This document shows positions 5,290-34,729 of a DNA stretch of 35,429 nt, piece after piece. Origin of the DNA: a virus (Duplodnaviria > Heunggongvirae > Uroviricota > Caudoviricetes); IMG/VR virus record IMGVR_UViG_2531839330_000011; one strand, 5' to 3'. A program made the translations under genes and the position numbers. The stretch's first letter is position 1; every line of letters begins with the position of its first letter. Below the pieces are notes generated by a model, which saw only the letters and a list, made by a program, of their open reading frames with translations, searched no databases and was not told where the DNA came from.

Positions 5290-5600
5290 ATGCACACACA
5301 AAAAAACCGCTTGCCATGCCTCAATCGGTCAGGTTACATTTCCGCTGCAGCTCATAAAACGGGTGCCGGGATTCTCAACCCGATACAGAGCAAAGCGCAT
5401 AACCGCGCAAGCGGTTTTTTTGTGCGTACTGTATTGCCACGTCTTTTTCGCGTCAGAATTATGGCGGGGCGTACGGGGCCGACTTCGGTCGGGCCGGATT
5501 CTTTGCTCTCCGGTGTTGAGAACCCTGTACGTCTCGCCACCCCGAGATTCTCAACTCTGGATGGTGAGTTATTTCTATCACCGAGCAAAGAGGCCACACC
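5290..5600 (+). other. Highly structured non-coding segment (candidate ncRNA or terminator/regulatory element)
   Basis: 15-bp perfect inverted repeat AAAAAAACCGCTTGC (5300..5314) / GCAAGCGGTTTTTTT (5407..5421). Local hairpin CCGC-GCAA-GCGG followed by T7. Hairpin GGCCGAC-TTCG-GTCGGGCC near 5478..5497. Repeated ATTCTCAAC motifs at about 5380 and 5548 with an inverted copy near 5514. ORFs called across this interval lack protein-like composition. Confidence 0.35.
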
Positions 5601-5831
5601 ATGGCAGACCGCAAACAGCACCGCACTATCGCGGAGCGTCGTCACATCCAGACTGAAATCAACCACAGACTTTCCCGCGCATCACGCGTCGCGCAAATCA
5701 TGCACATCAATATGCTGCATGAGCGCAGCCACGCACTATCAAACATTTATTCCGCCTCTGTTTTCAGCTATCTGGCGGATGATCTGCACGAGCTTCAACA
5801 GCTCATCCAGCAGCAAAACAAACTCCATTAA
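5601..5831 (+). CDS. Hypothetical small basic protein
   Basis: 76-aa ORF with AGAGG RBS 8 nt upstream. Confidence 0.5.
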   Translation: MADRKQHRTIAERRHIQTEINHRLSRASRVAQIMHINMLHERSHALSNIYSASVFSYLADDLHELQQLIQQQNKLH

Positions 5832-5903
5832 TTCCTGTTCCGGGCCTTTCCTGCACCTTGCGGCGGGAGGCCTTCGCACATCTGTAACAAGAGGATTGCC
5901 GCA

Positions 5904-6269
5904 ATGATTCTCGCCAACGACTTTCTTGAATACCTGCTCAACACAGAGCGTGATCTTGCCGCTCGCGTACGTGATCGTTATGACATGTATCTGAAATCCC
6001 TGCCTGTACCGCAGCTCGCTGACGGAAAAATTGTTATTGATGGTCGCTACATGATTGACAGCCACGAGGGGAATTACAGGCTTTACCGCATTGAAGCCGG
6101 CACCCCGTCCGTTATTGGCATTTACCAGCGCCCATCCTCTGCGATCGTCGATGTGATTGCCGACAGCATCCGCATCACACACCACCATGCCGACACAGAA
6201 GACACTGTGCTGGAGATTCAGCGGCTGGCTGCCGTTTGCCGTGACACTCTGAACGGAATGACGAAGTAA
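5904..6269 (+). CDS. Hypothetical protein immediately upstream of replication gene A
   Basis: 121-aa ORF. Sits at the position P2 gene B occupies, but no similarity recognised. Confidence 0.5.
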   Translation: MILANDFLEYLLNTERDLAARVRDRYDMYLKSLPVPQLADGKIVIDGRYMIDSHEGNYRLYRIEAGTPSVIGIYQRPSSAIVDVIADSIRITHHHADTEDTVLEIQRLAAVCRDTLNGMTK

Positions 6270-6275
6270 ATCAGT

Positions 6276-9098
6276 ATGACGACAGAGTACATCAGGGACT
6301 GGCAACAACCGCGCCACGCAGTAGGACGTGAAGGAACGGAGATCCCCGCACCTGAATCCGCACTTTCCTCCTGGCTGGATGCCTACCGGGCAGAGAACGA
6401 ACGCCGCCAGGAAATGGCTGATGCGGCGTTCTCCGCCACACCGCTGGGCAACCTGATTAATAAAAGCCTGGACGCACAGGAAAAACAGGACAAAACCATC
6501 ACACTGGCCAGAGAAGCCAGAAAACAGGCACGCGGCGCGGTGGATGAAGCCATGGCCTCGCTGCGCCTGCTGCCATCCTATCTGCGCGATCCGCTTATTC
6601 GCCACCTCTCCTTCCTGCGCAAAAAACAGGAATCTGACCGCCAGAAAGGTAAAAAGAACCAGCAGGCTGAACGCTACGCGCGCGGGACCCTGCGCAAAAT
6701 ATTCGAACGTCTGGACCGCACCGACCACCGCTGGCTGACACCGGGTTATCGCTCCCTTGCCGGACGCGAACGCCTGGATGATTTGCTTTACCTCCCGCAG
6801 CTCAACAAGCACCAGATACAGACGCTGGCCACCATGACGGCGGCGATGTTCAGCAGCACCTTCGAAAAACTCTGCGATGGCTTTGGCGCGACCGATGGCG
6901 AGCTGACCATGGATGTAACGCTGAAGGCGTATCAGATGCTGGCCCGCATGGCGTTACACCTGCACATCATGCCTCCACATTATGACGCACTGACAACAGA
7001 TAAAGACCGGAGGAACGAACCGGACACGGAGCTGCTGCCGGGCGCAATCCTTCGCCTGACCTGTGCGGAATGGTGGAAACGCAAACTGTGGCTGTTACGT
7101 TGCGAGTGGAGAGAAGAACAACTCCGCGCCGCCTGTCTGGTTTCCAGAAAAACATCGCCTTATCTGAGCCAGGACGCGTTAAGCGAGTTTCGCGCACAGC
7201 GCGAGAAAACACGCGATTTCCTGAAAAGTTTCATGCTGGAAAATGAAGACGGGTTCACGATTGATCTCGAGACAGTGTATTACGCGGGAGTAAGTAACCC
7301 GGTTCACCGTAAGGCAGAAATGATGGCCACCATGAAGGGGCTGGAACTTCTGGCCGAAGCCCGTGGCGACAAAGCGGTGTTTCTGACTGTCACCTGCCCG
7401 TCAAAATACCACGCCACAACAGAGAACGGTCATCCGAATCCCAGATGGAACGGGGCCACCATGCGCGACTCCAGCGATTACCTGGTTAACACGTTTTTTG
7501 CGGCGGTCCGCAAAAAACTGAACCGCGACGGTCTTCGCTGGTATGGCATCCGCACGGGGGAGCCTCACCATGACGGCACCGTGCACTGGCATATGATGGT
7601 CTTTGCACATCCGGACGAGATTGAAACCATCGTGTCCCACGTCTGCGATATTGCCATTCAGGAAGACCGCCACGAGCTGGGCGATGACATAACTCCGCGT
7701 TTTAAGGCGGAGTACGTCGACGGCTCAAAAGGCACACCAACCAGCTACATCGCCACCTACATCGGAAAGAACCTGGACAGCCGCGCCGTGGATGGCATCG
7801 ACCCGAAAACGGGCAAGCCACGCGTTGACCACGAAACCGGAAAATTAATGGCCGAGAGCGTGGAACGCGCCATCGGCTGGGCGCGCCTTCACCGGGTCCG
7901 CCAGTTCCAGTTCTTTGGTATCCCCTCCCGTCAGGTGTGGCGTGAACTGCGCCGCCTTGCCAGCCAGATGGCACGCAACCCGGAAGGCCCACAACGGCTG
8001 AAAGATGACGCAATGGACGCGGTACTCGCTGCCGCTGATGCCGGATGTTTTGCCACCTACATTGAAAAACAGGGTGGCGTGCTTGTTCCACGCAAGGACT
8101 ACCTGATTCGCACCGCCTACGACCTCGCAGATGAGCTGAACGATTACGGCGAACAGAGCGTACAGATTTACGGGATCTGGTCACCACTCATCGGGGAATC
8201 CTCCCGTGTGTGCACGCATCCGGATAACTGGAAGCTGGTAAGACGCAAACCGGAAGCGGAAGACAGCGCCCGCGAAAATGGTTTTGACCTTCAGGGCGGC
8301 CCTGCCGCCCCTTGGACTCGTGGCAATAACTGTCCCCGTGTACAGGAAACGAACAACAACGGGACAGAACAGCCGGAAGAACGGCCAGCACCGTGGCCGC
8401 AGCTCCCTGATGGCGTTGAAGTGAACGAATGGATGCGCTCACTGAAACGGCACGAACGCCGGGCGCTGATGCGTTCGCTTCGTGACAAACAGGCAAAAAA
8501 CAGCAGTGATGAAATGCAGAGCTGGACACAGAGCCGCAAACAGCAGCGGCCTTTGCCTGATAACCACGAATTACTCGCTAAAGAATGGCGGGAATCTGCC
8601 GAATCTCTCGGCCTGCATATCGGTGAACAGCAGATGCAGCACCTGTTACGGGGCGGCAGCCTGTACGTTGACGGCAGCATCATTGCACCGCAGGGATTTG
8701 AAATTGTACGCAAACCGGATCCCAGCCCGGACAGCCGAATCACGCAGCTCTGGCAGCGCCTGAGCCGTAATCACGGCGTAAGCAGCACAGAGATCCGCCA
8801 TAACCCGGTCGCCAGCTATCTGGAACAACTGGGGGCATCAGACCCCGAAGCCGCCGCACGTCTGGCATCCACACTTCAGCAGGACCAGAACACCATGAAA
8901 ACCCCCGTTACCGTGCTTTCTGACATGCTGCGCGCCATCCGTGACGCAGAGCACGCACAGAGAATCAGTGAAACCACTGAACGCGCCCACCGCAAAGCAG
9001 ACCTGCTGCGGGGTAGCCTGACCAATGGAAACAAAAAACAGACAGAAACGGGACTCACAAATCCCGTAAATGAGCAAAAAACGCGCCGCGATATATGA
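6276..9098 (+). CDS. A: Rolling-circle replication initiator endonuclease (P2 gpA family), 940 aa
   Basis: HUH motif (GTVHWHMMVF) followed by a paired-tyrosine motif (TSYIATYIGKN), typical of P2 A / phiX174 A superfamily relaxases. Synteny after the early operon. Longer than P2 gpA as I recall it. Confidence 0.88.
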   Translation: MTTEYIRDWQQPRHAVGREGTEIPAPESALSSWLDAYRAENERRQEMADAAFSATPLGNLINKSLDAQEKQDKTITLAREARKQARGAVDEAMASLRLLPSYLRDPLIRHLSFLRKKQESDRQKGKKNQQAERYARGTLRKIFERLDRTDHRWLTPGYRSLAGRERLDDLLYLPQLNKHQIQTLATMTAAMFSSTFEKLCDGFGATDGELTMDVTLKAYQMLARMALHLHIMPPHYDALTTDKDRRNEPDTELLPGAILRLTCAEWWKRKLWLLRCEWREEQLRAACLVSRKTSPYLSQDALSEFRAQREKTRDFLKSFMLENEDGFTIDLETVYYAGVSNPVHRKAEMMATMKGLELLAEARGDKAVFLTVTCPSKYHATTENGHPNPRWNGATMRDSSDYLVNTFFAAVRKKLNRDGLRWYGIRTGEPHHDGTVHWHMMVFAHPDEIETIVSHVCDIAIQEDRHELGDDITPRFKAEYVDGSKGTPTSYIATYIGKNLDSRAVDGIDPKTGKPRVDHETGKLMAESVERAIGWARLHRVRQFQFFGIPSRQVWRELRRLASQMARNPEGPQRLKDDAMDAVLAAADAGCFATYIEKQGGVLVPRKDYLIRTAYDLADELNDYGEQSVQIYGIWSPLIGESSRVCTHPDNWKLVRRKPEAEDSARENGFDLQGGPAAPWTRGNNCPRVQETNNNGTEQPEERPAPWPQLPDGVEVNEWMRSLKRHERRALMRSLRDKQAKNSSDEMQSWTQSRKQQRPLPDNHELLAKEWRESAESLGLHIGEQQMQHLLRGGSLYVDGSIIAPQGFEIVRKPDPSPDSRITQLWQRLSRNHGVSSTEIRHNPVASYLEQLGASDPEAAARLASTLQQDQNTMKTPVTVLSDMLRAIRDAEHAQRISETTERAHRKADLLRGSLTNGNKKQTETGLTNPVNEQKTRRDI

Positions 9099-9174: not shown

Positions 9175-10134
9175 ATGAAAATTTGTATCGACGACGGCTC
9201 CACCAACATCAAGCTGGCATGGACTGAGAACGGCGAACGCCGCAACGCCATCAGCCCGAACAGCTTCAAGTCGGAATGGTCTGCGCCGTTCGGTGGCACG
9301 CAGCCCGCGAACTACATGCTTGATGGCGTGCGCTATGGTTTTGATCCGGTCAGCGATCGCTTTGTCCAGACGACCGACACGCAATACCAGTACAGCGATG
9401 TGAATGTAATCGCCATTCACCACGCGCTGGTCAAATCAGGCATCACACCACAGGAAGTGGATGTGGTTGTCACCCTGCCACTGAGCGAATATTTCGACAC
9501 AAACGCACAGCCGGACATGGCCAACATCAACCGCAAAAAAGCGAACGTCATGCGCCCGGTGGAGTACCAGAACGGCGAAGCATTCACTATCCGTAACGTA
9601 CGGGTTATGCCTGAATCCATTCCGGCTGGCTTTAAGGCACTGGCTGACATGAGTCCGTTTGAATCCCTGCTGATTGTGGATTTGGGCGGAACCACGCTGG
9701 ATGTGGCAAAGGTTCAGGGGCAACTGGCAGGTATCAGCCAGGTGTTTTGCGATCCACACGTAGGCGTTTCTCTTATGGCAGATGCCGTACTGTCGGTGAT
9801 GGCCACTAACGGTATGCGCACCAGTCACCACATCGCCAATACCATTATCGAACATCGCCATAATGAAGCATGGCTGCGCCAGCACATCCACAATGACGCG
9901 CATTACGCCAGCCTGATGGCGGTTATTCGTGAAAAGGAAGAAACACTGAAACAACGCGTGATCCGCGCGCTGGCGGTTTTTTCGGGTTACGGGCGGGTGA
10001 TGGTTGTCGGTGGCGGGGCGGAGATTGTGGCACCCGCTATCCGCGAAGCCTGCGGAGTTAATGCGACTTTCATCGCGGACGGGGTGCCACAGTTTGCTCT
10101 GGTTAATGGGCTGTACGCAATGGACAAGGAGTAA
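9175..10134 (+). CDS. parM: ParM/StbA-like actin-type ATPase (type II plasmid partition motor homologue), 319 aa
   Basis: Extensive collinear similarity to plasmid R1 ParM as recalled: IDDGSTNIKL, ISPNSFK, QYSDVNV-A-HHAL, NINRKKAN, VMPESIPAG, DLGGTTLD, GGGAE, LVNG. AAGGA RBS before the ATG at 9175. Confidence 0.85.
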   Translation: MKICIDDGSTNIKLAWTENGERRNAISPNSFKSEWSAPFGGTQPANYMLDGVRYGFDPVSDRFVQTTDTQYQYSDVNVIAIHHALVKSGITPQEVDVVVTLPLSEYFDTNAQPDMANINRKKANVMRPVEYQNGEAFTIRNVRVMPESIPAGFKALADMSPFESLLIVDLGGTTLDVAKVQGQLAGISQVFCDPHVGVSLMADAVLSVMATNGMRTSHHIANTIIEHRHNEAWLRQHIHNDAHYASLMAVIREKEETLKQRVIRALAVFSGYGRVMVVGGGAEIVAPAIREACGVNATFIADGVPQFALVNGLYAMDKE

Positions 10135-10138
10135 ACCA

Positions 10139-10450
10139 ATGACGACACCAACCAGACGGATAAGTTTCTATCTGAAGCCCGCCGCCGTCAAGAACGAAGG
10201 AGAAGCATGCGCCTGGCTGGACAGCCTTACACCAGAAGCCCGCAAAAGCGGCCAACGCGTGGCTTTTCTGGCCGGGCTGGCACTTCTGAAGACGAATCCG
10301 GCAGAGGCTTACCGACTGGCCGCATGGGCTGATGATGAGATGTTACCTGTGACACAAATCAGCTCAAAAAAGTTTGAAGCACAGTCTGCACCAGTGGCTA
10401 AGATAACCAGCCAGATGGCTGGGAATATCCGGGCGTTATTTCCTGAGTAA
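10139..10450 (+). CDS. parR: ParR-like small DNA-binding adaptor (candidate partition centromere-binding protein), 103 aa
   Basis: ATG at 10139 is 4 nt after the parM-like stop, with AGGAG RBS. N-terminal region (RRISFYLKPAAV...RVAFLAGLALLK) resembles the R1 ParR N-terminus. Gene order parM then parR matches R1. Longer ORF 10004..10450 trimmed to the internal start. Confidence 0.6.
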   Translation: MTTPTRRISFYLKPAAVKNEGEACAWLDSLTPEARKSGQRVAFLAGLALLKTNPAEAYRLAAWADDEMLPVTQISSKKFEAQSAPVAKITSQMAGNIRALFPE

Positions 10451-10578
10451 AAGCATCTGCGCGAAAAATGCTCACGTTTATAGAGACAGTATCATTCCAT
10501 CTGGCACACTTACTTCAATAATCGATCTGTTAAACAAATAGATTGTCTATTATCTATCGATTAAAACGATCAATTATC

Positions 10579-10606
10579 TTGACAGTAATGTGCCTTTTTG
10601 TAAGAT
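10579..10606 (+). promoter_or_regulatory. Candidate sigma70 promoter (TTGACA-16 nt-TAAGAT) with a GATC overlapping the -10 hexamer; two further GATC sites and an ATAGA-TTG-TCTAT palindrome (10538..10550) just upstream
   Basis: Read directly: TTGACA at 10579..10584, TAAGAT at 10601..10606, GATC at 10524, 10568 and 10604. Confidence 0.4.
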
Positions 10607-10657
10607 CGTTCGCATTGTGAGCGACAAGATAATTGCGCGGCATTGTCCATGCAAAAC

Positions 10658-10800
10658 GCCCCAATAGCAGCAACTATTGGGGCGTAAAACTCGGTCGGAC
10701 TCACTTAACCTGATATGCGTGCCTTCCGAAGTAAATCAAAATGTGCGTCGTATATTTTATTGCTTACACGCACCTCTGTAAAGGCACGCATATTTTTCCT
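10658..10800 (+). other. Structured leader upstream of the 89-aa ORF: hairpin CCCCAATAG/CTATTGGGG (10659..10682) and a 13-bp perfect inverted repeat ATATGCGTGCCTT (10713..10725) / AAGGCACGCATAT (10781..10793) enclosing a nested GTGCGT/ACGCAC hairpin, followed by ATTTTTCC
   Basis: Read directly from the sequence. The second arm ends immediately before the RBS of the downstream ORF, giving an attenuator-like layout. A 22-codon ORF (ATG 10741, MCVVYFIAYTHLCKGTHIFPMR) lies inside the structure. Confidence 0.35.
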
Positions 10801-10814
10801 ATGAGGTAAATAAA

Positions 10815-11084
10815 GTGCGGGCTAAAACAGGTATTTGCAAGAACCCTCATCGTTATAATCCAACATTTCTGTCTCTCCCTGAATATCAAGGACAAGAAGG
10901 TCGGCACAAATGCGCTGCCTGTGCTTTTGAGCTAGGCATAAAAGATGCGCTTGAAGGACGCGCTATGGCTCAGAATGATTTAGTTTTAGCTAACATTCCG
11001 TTTAGCCAGGCTGGAACTGTAAGGCACAGAGATGCCTATGAAGCATATGTTCGTGGTTGGCGATTAATAAACAGCAACAATTGA
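10815..11084 (+). CDS. Hypothetical 89-aa Cys/His-containing protein, stand-alone transcription unit in the A-to-Q accessory locus
   Basis: GTG start at 10815 with GAGG RBS. Own candidate promoter upstream and a strong intrinsic terminator directly downstream. Spaced Cys/His residues (C8, H12, H31, C33, C36, C37) hint at a small metal-binding fold. No family recognised. Confidence 0.55.
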   Translation: MRAKTGICKNPHRYNPTFLSLPEYQGQEGRHKCAACAFELGIKDALEGRAMAQNDLVLANIPFSQAGTVRHRDAYEAYVRGWRLINSNN

Positions 11085-11093
11085 TACTTTTGA

Positions 11094-11117
11094 AGCGCCG
11101 ATAAGGCGCTTTTTTTG
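11094..11117 (+). terminator. Rho-independent terminator (GCGCC-GATAA-GGCGC followed by T7)
   Basis: GC-rich hairpin plus T-run, 10 nt after the stop of the 89-aa ORF. Confidence 0.8.
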
Positions 11118-11119
11118 TT

Positions 11120-11520
11120 TGCACGATAGTGCACAAGTTTGCACAATTTTTTTGAACGACTTTTTGTACTTCCGGCCCGCGTGGTGGCTGGATCCGTCAA
11201 GGATCCGTACGTGCACAAAAAAACGCGTTTTTTCTGCGCGCAGGTGACGGGGGAACAGCCCGCGTTTCAGGGGGTAAATAGCATTCCCTGAACGATGTCG
11301 CAGAGATAGAACAGAATGGCTGTATTTCTCACGCTGAGCGTGAAAAAGACGTGAGGGCTTTTGATTTGATGGGGTGAAAGGTAAGGCCGTCAAAATCGCA
11401 CTGAGACGGCGAGAACATGCAGTCAACGCGGTGGGATTGCGTAAGAGTCTGACTGTCGATGATGGCAATCAGCAGGAAAGCGTCGTGAAATTATCTGACT
11501 GATACAGGAGCTGGAGAGTC
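11120..11520. other. Non-coding interval between the accessory locus and Q; by P2 synteny the expected location of cos and the packaging site
   Basis: About 400 bp without a convincing ORF. Contains repeated GTGCACAA motifs and GGATCC-N5-GGATCC. The P2 cos sequence was not matched with confidence. Confidence 0.3.
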
Positions 11521-34426: not shown

Positions 34427-34513
34427 TGGTACCCGGAGCGGGACTTGAACCCGCACAGCGCGAACGCCGAGGGATTTTAAATCCCTTGTGTCTACCGATT
34501 CCACCATCCGGGC
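34427..34513 (-). tRNA. leuZ: tRNA-Leu (anticodon UAA)
   Basis: Reverse complement GCCCGGATGGTGGAATCGGTAGACACAAGGGATTTAAAATCCCTCGGCG...GGGTACCA matches E. coli leuZ as recalled, with long variable arm and encoded CCA. Confidence 0.93.
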
Positions 34514-34525
34514 TCGGGAAGAAAG

Positions 34526-34599
34526 TGGAGGCGCGTTCCGGAGTCGAACCGGACTAGACGGATTTGCAATCCGCTACATAACCGCTTTGTTAACGCGCC
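34526..34599 (-). tRNA. cysT: tRNA-Cys (anticodon GCA)
   Basis: Reverse complement GGCGCGTTAACAAAGCGGTTATGTAGCGGATTGCAAATCCGTCTAGTCCGGTTCGACTCCGGAACGCGCCTCCA matches E. coli cysT as recalled. Confidence 0.93.
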
Positions 34600-34653
34600 A
34601 AATTCTTCAGGCCTTTCAGCCAGACATCCGCTTGAGGCCGATGTCTTTTAAAC

Positions 34654-34729
<76 letters not shown>

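What the first reader, a model, noticed from the sequence alone, without database searches (positions are those of the whole stretch)
10451..11120. Stand-alone 89-aa Cys/His protein with a long structured, GATC-rich leader in the A-to-Q accessory locus
This unit has its own candidate promoter (TTGACA-16-TAAGAT) with a GATC overlapping the -10 and two more GATC sites within 85 bp, suggesting Dam-methylation or SeqA-sensitive control. A roughly 200-nt leader follows, containing a hairpin and a 13-bp perfect inverted repeat whose 3' arm abuts the RBS and is followed by a U-rich tract, giving an attenuator-like geometry; a 22-codon ORF lies inside it. The small protein has spaced Cys/His residues (C8, H12, H31, C33, C36). 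A strong terminator follows. The unit sits exactly where P2 carries its anti-phage genes tin and old, a position known to hold varied accessory cargo in P2-like prophages. This is my top candidate for an undescribed regulatory or defence element in the window.
Basis: partly seen in the sequence, partly recalled or inferred. Interest (0 to 1): 0.7.

Follow-up and report, generated by a model that had tools for sequence, protein, structure and literature searches.

The report
Antisense-RNA-controlled small zinc protein moron
This stretch of a P2-like prophage is a self-contained cargo gene for an uncharacterised small zinc-type protein; its "structured leader" actually hides a conserved small antisense RNA gene on the opposite strand, and its distant relatives sit inside GATC-specific restriction-modification systems.

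Summary
Region 10568-11118 is an autonomous cassette with a sense promoter, a 202-nt leader, an 89-aa ORF and a terminator. It lies in the gpA-gpQ hotspot of a P88-like (Xuanwuvirus) prophage, next to parMR.

Comparison of 18 diverged cassette types from P2-like, P22-like and lambdoid prophages, plus three chromosomal islets, shows what is conserved. It is not a sense-strand attenuator. It is a convergent minus-strand sigma-70 promoter (TTTACA-17-TAnnnT, invariant at T1, A2 and T6) plus a covarying minus-strand terminator hairpin. Together they predict a cis-antisense sRNA of about 70-100 nt (window about 10747 to 10651) opposite the mid-leader.

The 13-bp inverted repeat and the 22-codon ORF occur only in the window's lineage and look like a duplication of the SD/start region.

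A GATC 6-8 nt upstream of the sense -35 is kept in 18 of 18 types, which supports but does not prove Dam/SeqA input.

The protein (phrog_3941) has no Pfam, NCBIfam, PADLOC or PDB match. It is a tandem repeat with conserved C8, H12, C33 and C36. In 8 of 9 non-enterobacterial contexts sampled it lies beside a Dam-family methylase, usually with DpnII.

Its function and any regulation are inferred, not shown.

The parts
10518..10577 (.). Imperfect palindrome (26-nt arms, 73% complementary) holding two GATC and two ATCGAT motifs. Present only in the P2-like/parMR cassette types. Candidate ParR centromere or operator; not part of the core cassette.
   Evidence: inverted repeat I1. Conserved in L008 and L070 but absent from the P22-like and lambdoid types. 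No repeats upstream of parM.
10568..10571 (.). GATC site 1, 7 nt upstream of the sense -35.
   Evidence: A GATC 6-8 nt upstream of the -35 in 17 of 18 cassette types and displaced further upstream in L058, while the flanking bases vary.
10579..10607 (+). Sense sigma-70 promoter TTGACA-16-TAAGAT, with GATC (10604-10607) overlapping the 3' end of the -10. Predicted TSS about 10613.
   Evidence: TTGAnn-16/18-TAnnAT is conserved in 17 of 18 types. A GATC overlaps the -10 in 7 of 18 types, and 2 more have one just after it.
10613..10814 (+). 5' leader of the 89-aa mRNA (about 202 nt; about 170 nt in most other types).
10651..10747 (-). Predicted cis-antisense sRNA of about 97 nt. It has a 5' single-stranded region, a weak stem-loop, a 13-bp GC-rich terminator hairpin (10685..10656) and a UUUUG tail.
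   Evidence: The equivalent RNA of about 70 nt is predicted in all 18 types and in L103, L108 and L109. Model R1 finds it on the minus strand only. The terminator helix covaries.
10754..10782 (-). Antisense promoter: -35 TTTACA (10782..10777), 17-nt spacer, -10 TAAAAT (10759..10754). TSS about 10746-10748.
   Evidence: 10 of 12 matches. In 18 of 18 types: TTTAC(A/T), exactly 17 nt, TAnnnT. The -35 and -10 positions T1, A2 and T6 are invariant, the middle -10 positions match in 8-12 of 18, and the spacer in a mean of 9.9 of 18.
10713..10793 (+). 13-bp perfect inverted repeat (10713-10725 / 10781-10793) enclosing a second small hairpin. Specific to the window lineage. The 5' arm lies inside the antisense-covered region; the 3' arm overlaps the antisense -35.
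   Evidence: inverted repeat I3. Absent from the 17 other cassette types.
10741..10809 (+). 22-codon leader ORF, specific to the window lineage. Its RBS/start (GAAGTAAATCAAAATGTGCG, 10728-10747) resembles the main SD/start (GAGGTAAATAAAGTGCGG, 10803-10820), suggesting a duplication. Its stop codon TAA follows the main SD directly.
   Evidence: (direct repeat D5). No polymorphism inside it in 32 near-identical loci.
10815..11084 (+). 89-aa basic protein, GTG start, SD GAGG at 10803-10806. A tandem repeat of a roughly 40-aa knuckle-plus-helix unit; C8, H12, C33 and C36 are a putative zinc site. Member of phrog_3941.
11092..11118 (+). Intrinsic terminator of the sense transcript (8-bp stem, 5 GC pairs, T7 run).
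   Evidence: Equivalent terminators follow the gene in L006 and L007.

Best explanation
Region 10568-11118 is an autonomous moron cassette that moves as one unit between temperate phages and chromosomal islets of Enterobacterales.

A sigma-70 promoter flanked by Dam (GATC) sites transcribes a mRNA with a leader of about 200 nt for a small, basic, probably zinc-binding protein. A convergent promoter inside the leader makes a cis-antisense sRNA of about 97 nt that is fully complementary to the middle of the leader (about -170 to -68 relative to the start codon).

The most likely mechanism is that the antisense RNA keeps the protein low in the lysogen. It could do so by duplex formation with the leader (RNase III cleavage, blocking of an upstream ribosome-loading region, or refolding that hides the SD) and/or by transcriptional interference between the two promoters, whose start sites are about 100-135 bp apart. 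GATC methylation state then probably tunes the balance of the two promoters.

From its genomic company elsewhere, the protein is most likely a nucleic-acid-binding accessory factor tied to GATC/Dam-type methylation and restriction. Enterobacterial phages would carry it for restriction-related or epigenetic manipulation of the host.

Shown here:
- Cassette anatomy.
- Conservation of both promoters.
- Terminator covariation.
- Family-wide Cys/His conservation.
- Linkage to Dam/DpnII restriction-modification (R-M) loci.

Inferred, not shown:
- That the sRNA is made.
- That it represses.
- That Dam matters.
- What the protein does.

Sub-confidences: autonomous cassette 0.85; antisense sRNA exists 0.8; it is a negative regulator 0.6; Dam/SeqA input 0.4; protein function linked to GATC methylation or restriction 0.35.
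For: 1. The same cassette sits in three different classical moron slots.
- gpA-parMR-[cassette]-cos-Q in P2-like phages.
- Between cI and N in a P22-like phage.
- Between Q and the lysis genes, on the opposite strand, in a Providencia lambdoid phage.
- Chromosomal islets.

2. The antisense promoter is conserved.
- TTTAC(A/T)-17-TAnnnT occurs in 18 of 18 types at a fixed 35-44 nt from the start codon. Invariance is confined to the -35 and to -10 positions 1, 2 and 6.
- Three loci outside that set have TTTACA-18-TACAAT at the same place, followed by a minus-strand terminator.

3. The hairpin is a minus-strand terminator.
- Every type has a perfect 10-13-bp stem of different sequence.
- 8 of 9 pairs show compensatory changes. 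The covariation score is 0.474 against 0.220 in shuffles (0 of 500 reach it) and 0.07-0.20 for slid controls.
- The tail is T-rich only on the minus strand.

4. The sense promoter and GATC site 1 are conserved. Further GATCs recur at the sRNA 5' end (15 of 18 types) and in the antisense promoter spacer (12 of 18 types).

5. The protein family is real and has no assigned function.
- 173 representatives in the 50%-identity library and at least 910 clusters.
- C8 (nearly invariant in A2), H12, R30, G41, Q65, R70, H71 and G81 are invariant.
- AF2 mean pLDDT 83.

6. Genomic context outside enterobacteria.
- In 8 of 9 contexts sampled, the gene is adjacent to a Dam-family D12 methylase (TIGR00571, 323 bits). 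The methylase comes with DpnII or with a DUF6996/6997/7226 protein.
- The domain is also found fused to NOV_C/DUF3883, DndB-like and WYL domains.
Against: - No expression data exist. Both promoters and the sRNA are predictions.
- The sRNA terminator tails are short (UUUCC in most types, UUUUG here) and poor in L052, L053, L065 and L068.
- The antisense RNA does not cover the SD or start codon. Modelling SD accessibility with the duplexed region blocked gave only a modest decrease in 13 of 18 types, so the repression mechanism is open.
- The window lineage lacks the two downstream GATC sites, and the Serratia islet has no GATC at all. Dam control is therefore not universal.
- R-M-linked homologues have no GATC clusters in their promoters.
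- The context sample is small (9 non-enteric contexts), and the DUF6996/6997/7226 partner is itself uncharacterised.
- No structural or profile match gives a biochemical function.
Confidence: 0.6

Rival explanations
1. Type I toxin-antitoxin-like module. The 89-aa protein is harmful when overproduced, for example as a nuclease-associated or nucleic-acid-binding toxin in the manner of RalR/RalA or SymE/SymR. The cis-antisense sRNA is its antitoxin. The cassette would then stabilise the prophage or act by abortive infection.
For: - The gene keeps its own antisense RNA across more than 20 diverged enterobacterial cassettes and islets. Strict coupling of this kind is typical of type I systems.
- The sRNA pairs far upstream of the RBS, as in tisB/istR-1 or zorO/orzO (established knowledge).
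- Disrupted copies exist: a split tblastn match in phage 503458 and an IS1 insertion in strain CH4793.
Against: - The protein is hydrophilic, basic and 89 aa, not a short membrane peptide.
- Outside enterobacteria the gene sits in R-M operons with no antisense RNA, which argues against intrinsic toxicity.
- Toxicity was not tested.
Confidence: 0.25
2. One reading: sense-strand control by the 13-bp inverted repeat plus U-tract (premature termination or SD masking) and by translation of the 22-codon leader ORF. The leader ORF's stop abuts the SD of the 89-aa ORF, giving R1 tap/repA-like translational coupling. The antisense RNA would act by blocking the leader ORF's RBS.
For: - The geometry is real.
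- The leader ORF has an SD-like GAAG 9 nt upstream of its ATG.
- Its RBS and ATG (10728-10743) lie inside the region covered by the predicted antisense RNA, and its stop codon TAA (10807-10809) is 5 nt before the GTG start.
- The minimum-free-energy fold of the leader forms the 13-bp stem.
Against: - The repeat and the leader ORF are absent from all 17 other cassette types.
- They look like a duplicated copy of the SD/start region (direct repeat D5).
- There is no polymorphism with which to test coding constraint.
- The stem encloses 55 nt, which makes it a poor intrinsic terminator.
Confidence: 0.15
3. The minus-strand RNA is mainly a trans-acting sRNA or a superinfection-exclusion RNA, in the manner of STnc6030 of phage BTP1. 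Alternatively, the GATC-rich palindrome and the promoter belong to the parMR partition system (parC/ParR control), and the 89-aa gene is a passenger.
For: - Prophage antisense RNAs can exclude phages (PMC7067206).
- The palindrome 10518-10577 is found only with parMR, and no parC-like repeats lie upstream of parM.
Against: - The sRNA body differs completely between cassette types while its promoter and terminator are kept. That fits a cis target, not a conserved trans seed.
- The cassette, with GATC site 1, occurs without parMR in P22-like and lambdoid phages and in islets.
Confidence: 0.1
4. The promoter-like and terminator-like motifs on the minus strand are non-functional by-products of a conserved sense-strand RNA structure.
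For: - The hairpin would also form in the sense leader.
- Within the window alone, promoter-like matches are at chance level.
Against: - Invariance falls on exactly the sigma-70 key positions (the -35, and T1, A2 and T6 of the -10) at a fixed 17-nt spacing, while the spacer and the middle of the -10 drift.
- The T-rich tail is always on the minus strand.
Confidence: 0.05

Closest known systems
IS10 pIN / RNA-OUT control of transposase
   Same: - The sense promoter has a GATC in or next to its -10.
- A short, stable antisense RNA from a convergent promoter pairs with the 5' part of the mRNA.
- The overall logic is to keep a potentially harmful product very low and link bursts of expression to DNA methylation state.
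   Different: - RNA-OUT covers the RBS and start codon; this sRNA covers about -170 to -68 only.
- There is no sequence or Rfam relationship.
- Dam dependence is untested here.
P22 sar RNA / ant, and FinP / traJ
   Same: A small antisense RNA with two stem-loops, transcribed from inside the leader of an accessory or regulatory gene of a mobile element. The finP promoter is Dam-sensitive (established knowledge).
   Different: - The Rfam sar and ctRNA_pGA1 matches are only the terminator hairpin, at 22 bits against gathering scores of 43-45.
- The target protein is unrelated.
Type I toxin-antitoxin systems with non-membrane toxins (RalR/RalA of the Rac prophage; SymE/SymR)
   Same: A prophage-borne small protein paired with an antisense sRNA. 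RalR (Lar) is also linked to restriction alleviation.
   Different: - No homology to the Lar/RalR family; there is no Pfam hit at all.
- Toxicity is unknown.
- Homologues inside R-M operons lack the sRNA.
Controller (C) proteins and other small accessory genes of type II restriction-modification systems
   Same: Outside enterobacteria, a small gene embedded in or next to Dam-type methylase/DpnII operons.
   Different: - It is not a helix-turn-helix protein. It is a tandem Cys/His knuckle-helix repeat with no known fold match.
- It usually lies downstream of the endonuclease gene rather than upstream.
- No operator-like GATC clusters are found in those loci.
Ribosome modulation factor (RMF, PF04957)
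   Same: - The helix of each repeat carries an RMF-like A-x-x-x-G-Y-x-x-G motif.
- 9 of 34 family members give sub-threshold Pfam RMF hits.
   Different: - Scores are far below threshold (at most 16 bits against 27.9).
- Profile-profile probability is 4.6-11.9% over 15-23 columns.
- RMF has no Cys/His knuckle and no repeat.

Membership tests
Cis-encoded antisense sRNA regulator (general class) | A promoter on the strand opposite the target, inside the target's transcription unit. | tested here: met
   TTTACA-17-TAAAAT at 10782..10754. Conserved with a sigma-70 signature in 18 of 18 types and 3 further loci. This is prediction only; no RNA data.
Cis-encoded antisense sRNA regulator (general class) | A defined 3' end, i.e. 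an intrinsic terminator on the antisense strand. | tested here: met
   GC-rich hairpin 10685..10656 plus UUUUG. It covaries. The tail is T-rich only on the minus strand. Tails are weak in 4 types.
Cis-encoded antisense sRNA regulator (general class) | The RNA is made and changes expression of the target. | not testable with these tools
   Needs Northern blot, dRNA-seq and promoter mutants.
   The 13-bp repeat, U-tract and 22-codon ORF are present only in the window lineage and absent from 17 other types.
Dam-regulated promoter (IS10 pIN type) | A GATC within or next to the core promoter elements, conserved in relatives. | tested here: met
   GATC at 10604 overlaps the -10, and GATC at 10568 lies 7 nt upstream of the -35. 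Site 1 is kept in 18 of 18 types. A GATC overlaps the -10 in 7 of 18 types, and 2 more have one just after it.
Dam-regulated promoter (IS10 pIN type) | Promoter activity depends on methylation state. | not testable with these tools
   Needs reporter fusions in dam+, dam- and seqA- hosts.
Type I toxin-antitoxin system | An antisense RNA paired with the mRNA of a small protein. | tested here: met
   See the antisense sRNA rows above (prediction level only).
Type I toxin-antitoxin system | A toxic product, usually a hydrophobic peptide shorter than 60 aa. | tested here: not met
   The product is 89 aa, hydrophilic and carries a net positive charge. Toxicity itself was not tested.
Known anti-phage defence systems (PADLOC-DB) | A profile match to a catalogued defence protein. 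| tested here: not met
   No hit for the 89-aa protein, ParM or ParR at E up to 10.
Ribosome modulation factor (PF04957) | A Pfam score above the gathering threshold, or a significant profile-profile match. | tested here: not met
   [not shown]
Accessory gene of GATC-specific (Dam/DpnII-type) restriction-modification systems | Recurrent adjacency to a Dam-family methylase and a cognate endonuclease. | tested here: met
   Met for the family in 8 of 9 non-enteric contexts. Not met for the window copy itself, which has no methylase or endonuclease neighbour.
   Found in 166-173 of 5,426 E. coli genomes. tblastn finds 8 phage records, none of them a P2 record. The same gene occurs in P22-like and lambdoid phages.

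The most novel reading that the evidence does not exclude
The 89-aa protein belongs to a previously unrecognised accessory component of GATC-specific (Dam/DpnII-type) restriction-modification systems: a tandem zinc-knuckle reader or modulator of GATC methylation or restriction. Temperate phages of Dam-positive enterobacteria have captured it as a stand-alone moron. They keep it under an unusually tight double control: Dam-sensitive convergent promoters plus a new family of cis-antisense sRNA. In the lysogen it would alter host GATC epigenetics or restriction outcomes, either as restriction alleviation or as a new defence.
Probability: 0.3. Interest if true: 0.8.

Novelty: new variant of a known kind. 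Interest (0 to 1): 0.6.

Why it matters
If the antisense RNA is real, it adds a widespread, unannotated sRNA family to Enterobacterales prophages. It has no Rfam match and is found in P2-like, P22-like and lambdoid prophages and in chromosomal islets. It would also be a clean natural example of a moron regulated by convergent promoters that carry Dam sites.

The protein family has at least 910 clusters, no name and no domain assignment. Its repeated placement inside Dam/DpnII operons suggests an unrecognised player in one of the best-studied restriction-modification families.

The result also corrects the reading of about a quarter of P2 hotspot loci that are listed simply as "partition system + hypothetical" (PMC9122126).

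Tried and rejected
**Family and RNA searches with no match**
- Pfam, NCBIfam and PADLOC searches of the 89-aa protein found no family. PHROGs gives only phrog_3941, of unknown function.
- Rfam on the region, the whole window and six homologous loci found nothing for the leader or sRNA. The only hits were sub-threshold terminator matches to sar, ctRNA_pGA1 and Spot 42.

**Structure searches with no significant match**
- PDB sequence profile: no hit.
- Foldseek against BFVD: nothing with E below 0.9.
- The afdb50 library was not available.

**RMF homology rejected**
- Pfam hits are sub-threshold.
- hhalign gives 4.6% against one RMF sequence and 11.9% against an RMF profile.

**Other ideas tested and not supported**
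- Blocking the antisense-covered region and measuring SD accessibility gave small, inconsistent shifts that are not decisive.
- The idea that the protein binds GATC operators in its own promoter is not supported: R-M-linked loci have no GATC clusters upstream.
- Polymorphism in the 22-codon ORF could not be used as a test of coding, because there is no variation in it.
- The plasmid collection holds no copy of the unit, so it is not plasmid-derived despite the neighbouring parMR.

**Literature and tool failures**
- Literature searches for the motif, phrog_3941, DUF6996/6997/7226, Xuanwuvirus/P88, and Dam plus antisense plus moron found nothing on this unit.
- The DUF6996/6997/7226 neighbour has no informative PDB or NCBIfam match.
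- The search for related loci with the family alignment failed because no conserved 7-10-column stretch exists. Single-protein queries were used instead.
Full report
**Context**

The window is a P2-like prophage of the Xuanwuvirus (P88-like) group. It is about 99% identical over the finding to Escherichia phage 520873.
- Around the finding lie the replication gene A (6276-9098, PF05840), a ParM/StbA gene (9175-10134) and a ParR/StbB gene (10139-10450).
- Next come the 89-aa ORF (10815-11084), a terminator and the cos-proximal spacer.
- The portal (Q) and terminase (P) genes follow on the minus strand.
- This gpA-gpQ interval is the documented P2 hotspot. About a quarter of its occupants are partition systems, listed as "StbA + Plasmid_stab_B + hypothetical" (PMC9122126).
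- The 670-bp unit is found in 166 of 5,426 complete E. coli genomes, always on the chromosome, and never in the plasmid collection.

**Observation**

- Taken alone, these features are not above chance. There are 2 promoter-like matches against 1.9 expected in shuffles.
- GATC occurs 89 times in 35,429 nt.
- Both strands of the leader fold better than shuffles, z about -3.8.
- The "hairpin" at 10656-10685 is followed by TAAAAC on the plus strand but by TTTTG on the minus strand. It therefore reads as a minus-strand terminator.

**Comparative test**

Relatives of the protein were collected from genome and viral collections and from diverged E. coli prophages.
- Taking the 340 nt upstream of the ORF in 91 loci gave 21 distinct types, 18 of them enterobacterial.
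- These 18 come from P2-like phages with parMR (window type, L008, L070), from P22-like phages where the gene sits between cI and N, and from Providencia/Proteus lambdoid phages where it sits between Q and the lysis genes on the opposite strand.
- All three positions are classical moron slots, so the unit moves as a cassette.

The alignment and anchored tables show what is conserved.
- Sense promoter: TTGAnn-16/18-TAnnAT, with the predicted start at about -170 (-202 in the window type).
- GATC site 1: 6-8 nt upstream of the -35 in 17 of 18 types, and displaced further upstream in L058.
- A GATC overlapping the -10: 7 of 18 types, including the window; 2 more have one just after the -10.
- Hairpin: a GC-rich hairpin whose stem sequence differs between types.
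- Minus-strand promoter: TTTAC(A/T), exactly 17 nt, TAnnnT in 18 of 18 types, starting 35-44 nt upstream of the start codon.

The conservation pattern of the minus-strand promoter is the expected mark of a sigma-70 promoter under selection, not of an RNA structure.
- Five positions of the -35 and -10 positions 1, 2 and 6 are identical in 18 of 18 types.
- The three middle -10 positions agree in only 8-12 of 18.
- The spacer agrees in a mean of 9.9 of 18.

Three loci outside the set of 18 carry TTTACA-18-TACAAT at the same distance, followed by a minus-strand hairpin plus T-run. They are an islet between nupC and a focA-like gene, and Serratia islets downstream of cysB.

The hairpin helix shows compensatory changes.
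- 8 of 9 pairs have compensatory changes.
- The covariation score is 0.474, against 0.220 in shuffles (0 of 500 reach it) and 0.07-0.20 when the partner is slid.
- Its flanks are A-rich on the plus strand and T-rich on the minus strand in all types.

A covariance model built from 17 types finds the element on the minus strand in all 18 types, including L056, which was not used for training. It finds nothing in the R-M-linked loci.

The predicted product is a cis-antisense sRNA of about 70 nt (97 nt in the window, about 10747 to 10651). It has a 5' single-stranded stretch, an A/U-rich stem-loop and the terminator stem-loop.

**What is not conserved**

The 13-bp inverted repeat, its U-tract and the 22-codon ORF are confined to the window lineage.
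- The other 17 types lack them.
- The segment GAAGTAAATCAAAATGTGCG (10728-10747) closely resembles the real SD/start GAGGTAAATAAAGTGCGG (10803-10820) and the SD/start of the L008 type.
- The extra roughly 30 nt and the small ORF are therefore best read as a duplication.
- In 32 near-identical loci there is no variation inside the small ORF, so coding constraint cannot be judged.
- An R1 tap/repA-like coupling remains possible in this lineage. It is kept as a rival.

**Mechanism**

The two predicted start sites face each other about 100 bp apart (about 135 bp in the window). The sRNA is complementary to about -170 to -68 of the leader and does not cover the SD or start codon.
- Folding each leader with the duplexed region blocked lowered SD/start accessibility in 13 of 18 types, but only modestly. 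The route of repression is therefore left open among duplex cleavage, loss of an upstream ribosome-loading region, refolding, and promoter interference.
- GATC sites recur at four fixed places: upstream of the sense -35; at the sense -10; at sRNA positions +3 to +8, inside GAGATCTC or GTGATCAC (15 of 18 types); and in the spacer of the antisense promoter (12 of 18 types).
- Only the GATC core is kept at these places. This fits a reader of GATC itself (Dam, SeqA) rather than a longer operator.
- The window lineage has the first two sites only, plus one more in a palindrome specific to parMR phages.
- The Serratia islet has no GATC at all, so this layer of control is not universal.

**The protein**

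- Family membership: phrog_3941, function unknown. No Pfam, NCBIfam or PADLOC family matches.
- An exhaustive search finds 173 representatives, most of them 80-95 aa. A profile search finds at least 910 clusters, all unnamed.
- It is a tandem repeat of a unit of about 40 aa: C-x3-H ... LPxxQxGxGRHKCxxCA(Y/F)ExG, then LPxSQAGxxRHKxxxxA(Y/F)xxGY.
- C8, H12, R30, G41, Q65, R70, H71 and G81 are invariant (C8 only nearly so in the second alignment, A2). C33 and C36 are nearly so.
- The AlphaFold model is confident (pLDDT 83). Each repeat is a short beta element followed by a helix.
- Sub-threshold RMF hits in 9 of 34 members cover only one helix motif. Profile-profile comparison gives 4.6-11.9%, so it is not filed as RMF.
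- The domain is found fused to NOV_C/DUF3883 (as two N-terminal copies), to DndB-like proteins and to a WYL regulator.

**Genomic company outside enterobacteria**

- In 8 of 9 contexts the gene lies beside a Dam-family D12 methylase (TIGR00571, 323 bits).
- With DpnII and a second N4/N6 methylase: L003/L004, where Dam is fused to DpnII and the family domain carries an extra C-terminal domain, and L005 and L115. L114 has the same partners and also a DndB-like gene.
- With a DUF6996/6997/7226 protein: L094, L100 and L111.
- With the methylase alone: L106, from Fusobacterium.
- Only L112 lacks any such partner.
- These loci have no antisense promoter and no GATC clusters upstream.

In enterobacteria the host itself supplies Dam. 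The constant partner of the family is therefore GATC methylation rather than any one endonuclease. This is the basis for the inferred functional link. It is context evidence only.

**Verdict**

- The unit is real and autonomous.
- The Dam idea gains support from conservation but is untested.
- The Cys/His residues are a family signature.
- A defence role remains a guess.
- The regulatory design is a new variant of a known kind, comparable to IS10 RNA-OUT, sar or FinP. It is attached to an unnamed protein family whose link to Dam/DpnII systems appears undescribed in the literature searched.

Noticed in passing
window 5347-5421 (+) and 5457-5544 (+): Rfam gathering-level matches to isrK (RF01394, 59.5 bits) and C4 antisense RNA (RF01695, 78.5 bits) lie side by side in the early region just upstream of gene A. 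They fall inside the mechanical ORF 5290-5907. This is a P1/P7-type immunity RNA pair in a P2-like phage.
   Followed up: no
window 34430-34729 (-): Three tRNA genes in a row near the right end of the window, possibly the chromosomal flank or attachment region of the prophage.
   Followed up: no
window 10518-10577: An imperfect 26-nt-arm palindrome with ATCGAT and GATC motifs. It is conserved only in the parMR-carrying P2-like types. The 77 nt upstream of parM hold no repeats, so this may be the ParR centromere or operator, placed downstream of parR.
   Followed up: partly
window 6276-9098 versus NC_049344 6055-8875: Gene A is one 940-aa ORF in the window. In the reference phage 520873 it is annotated as three separate CDS, which suggests frameshifts or fragmentary annotation in the reference.
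   Followed up: no
L008 3781-4059 (E. coli ECL27829) and L009 3769-4047: A diverged homologue of the 89-aa gene (alignable to the window only at 60-80% DNA identity, in the upstream part of the unit) is present but unannotated in RefSeq. It is followed by an annotated 95-aa hypothetical gene, so this cassette type carries a second cargo gene.
   Followed up: partly
NC_049341 (phage 503458) 24996-25169; NZ_CM166350 1996361-1997807: Damaged copies of the unit. In phage 503458 the tblastn match to the ORF is split into two places. In strain CH4793 an IS1 element sits inside the 670-bp unit.
   Followed up: no
window 11186-11208: A direct repeat GGATCCGT ... GGATCCGT, each copy with a GATC, and long A/T-run inverted repeats (11095-11116 / 11218-11239) in the cos-proximal spacer between the terminator and gene Q.
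   Followed up: no
L003 135-2084: In a Bacteroidales MAG, the Dam-DpnII fusion operon that holds the family gene is preceded by a WYL-WCX regulator gene (Pfam match) and by two ORFs with no family assignment, an arrangement that resembles a defence island.
   Followed up: no
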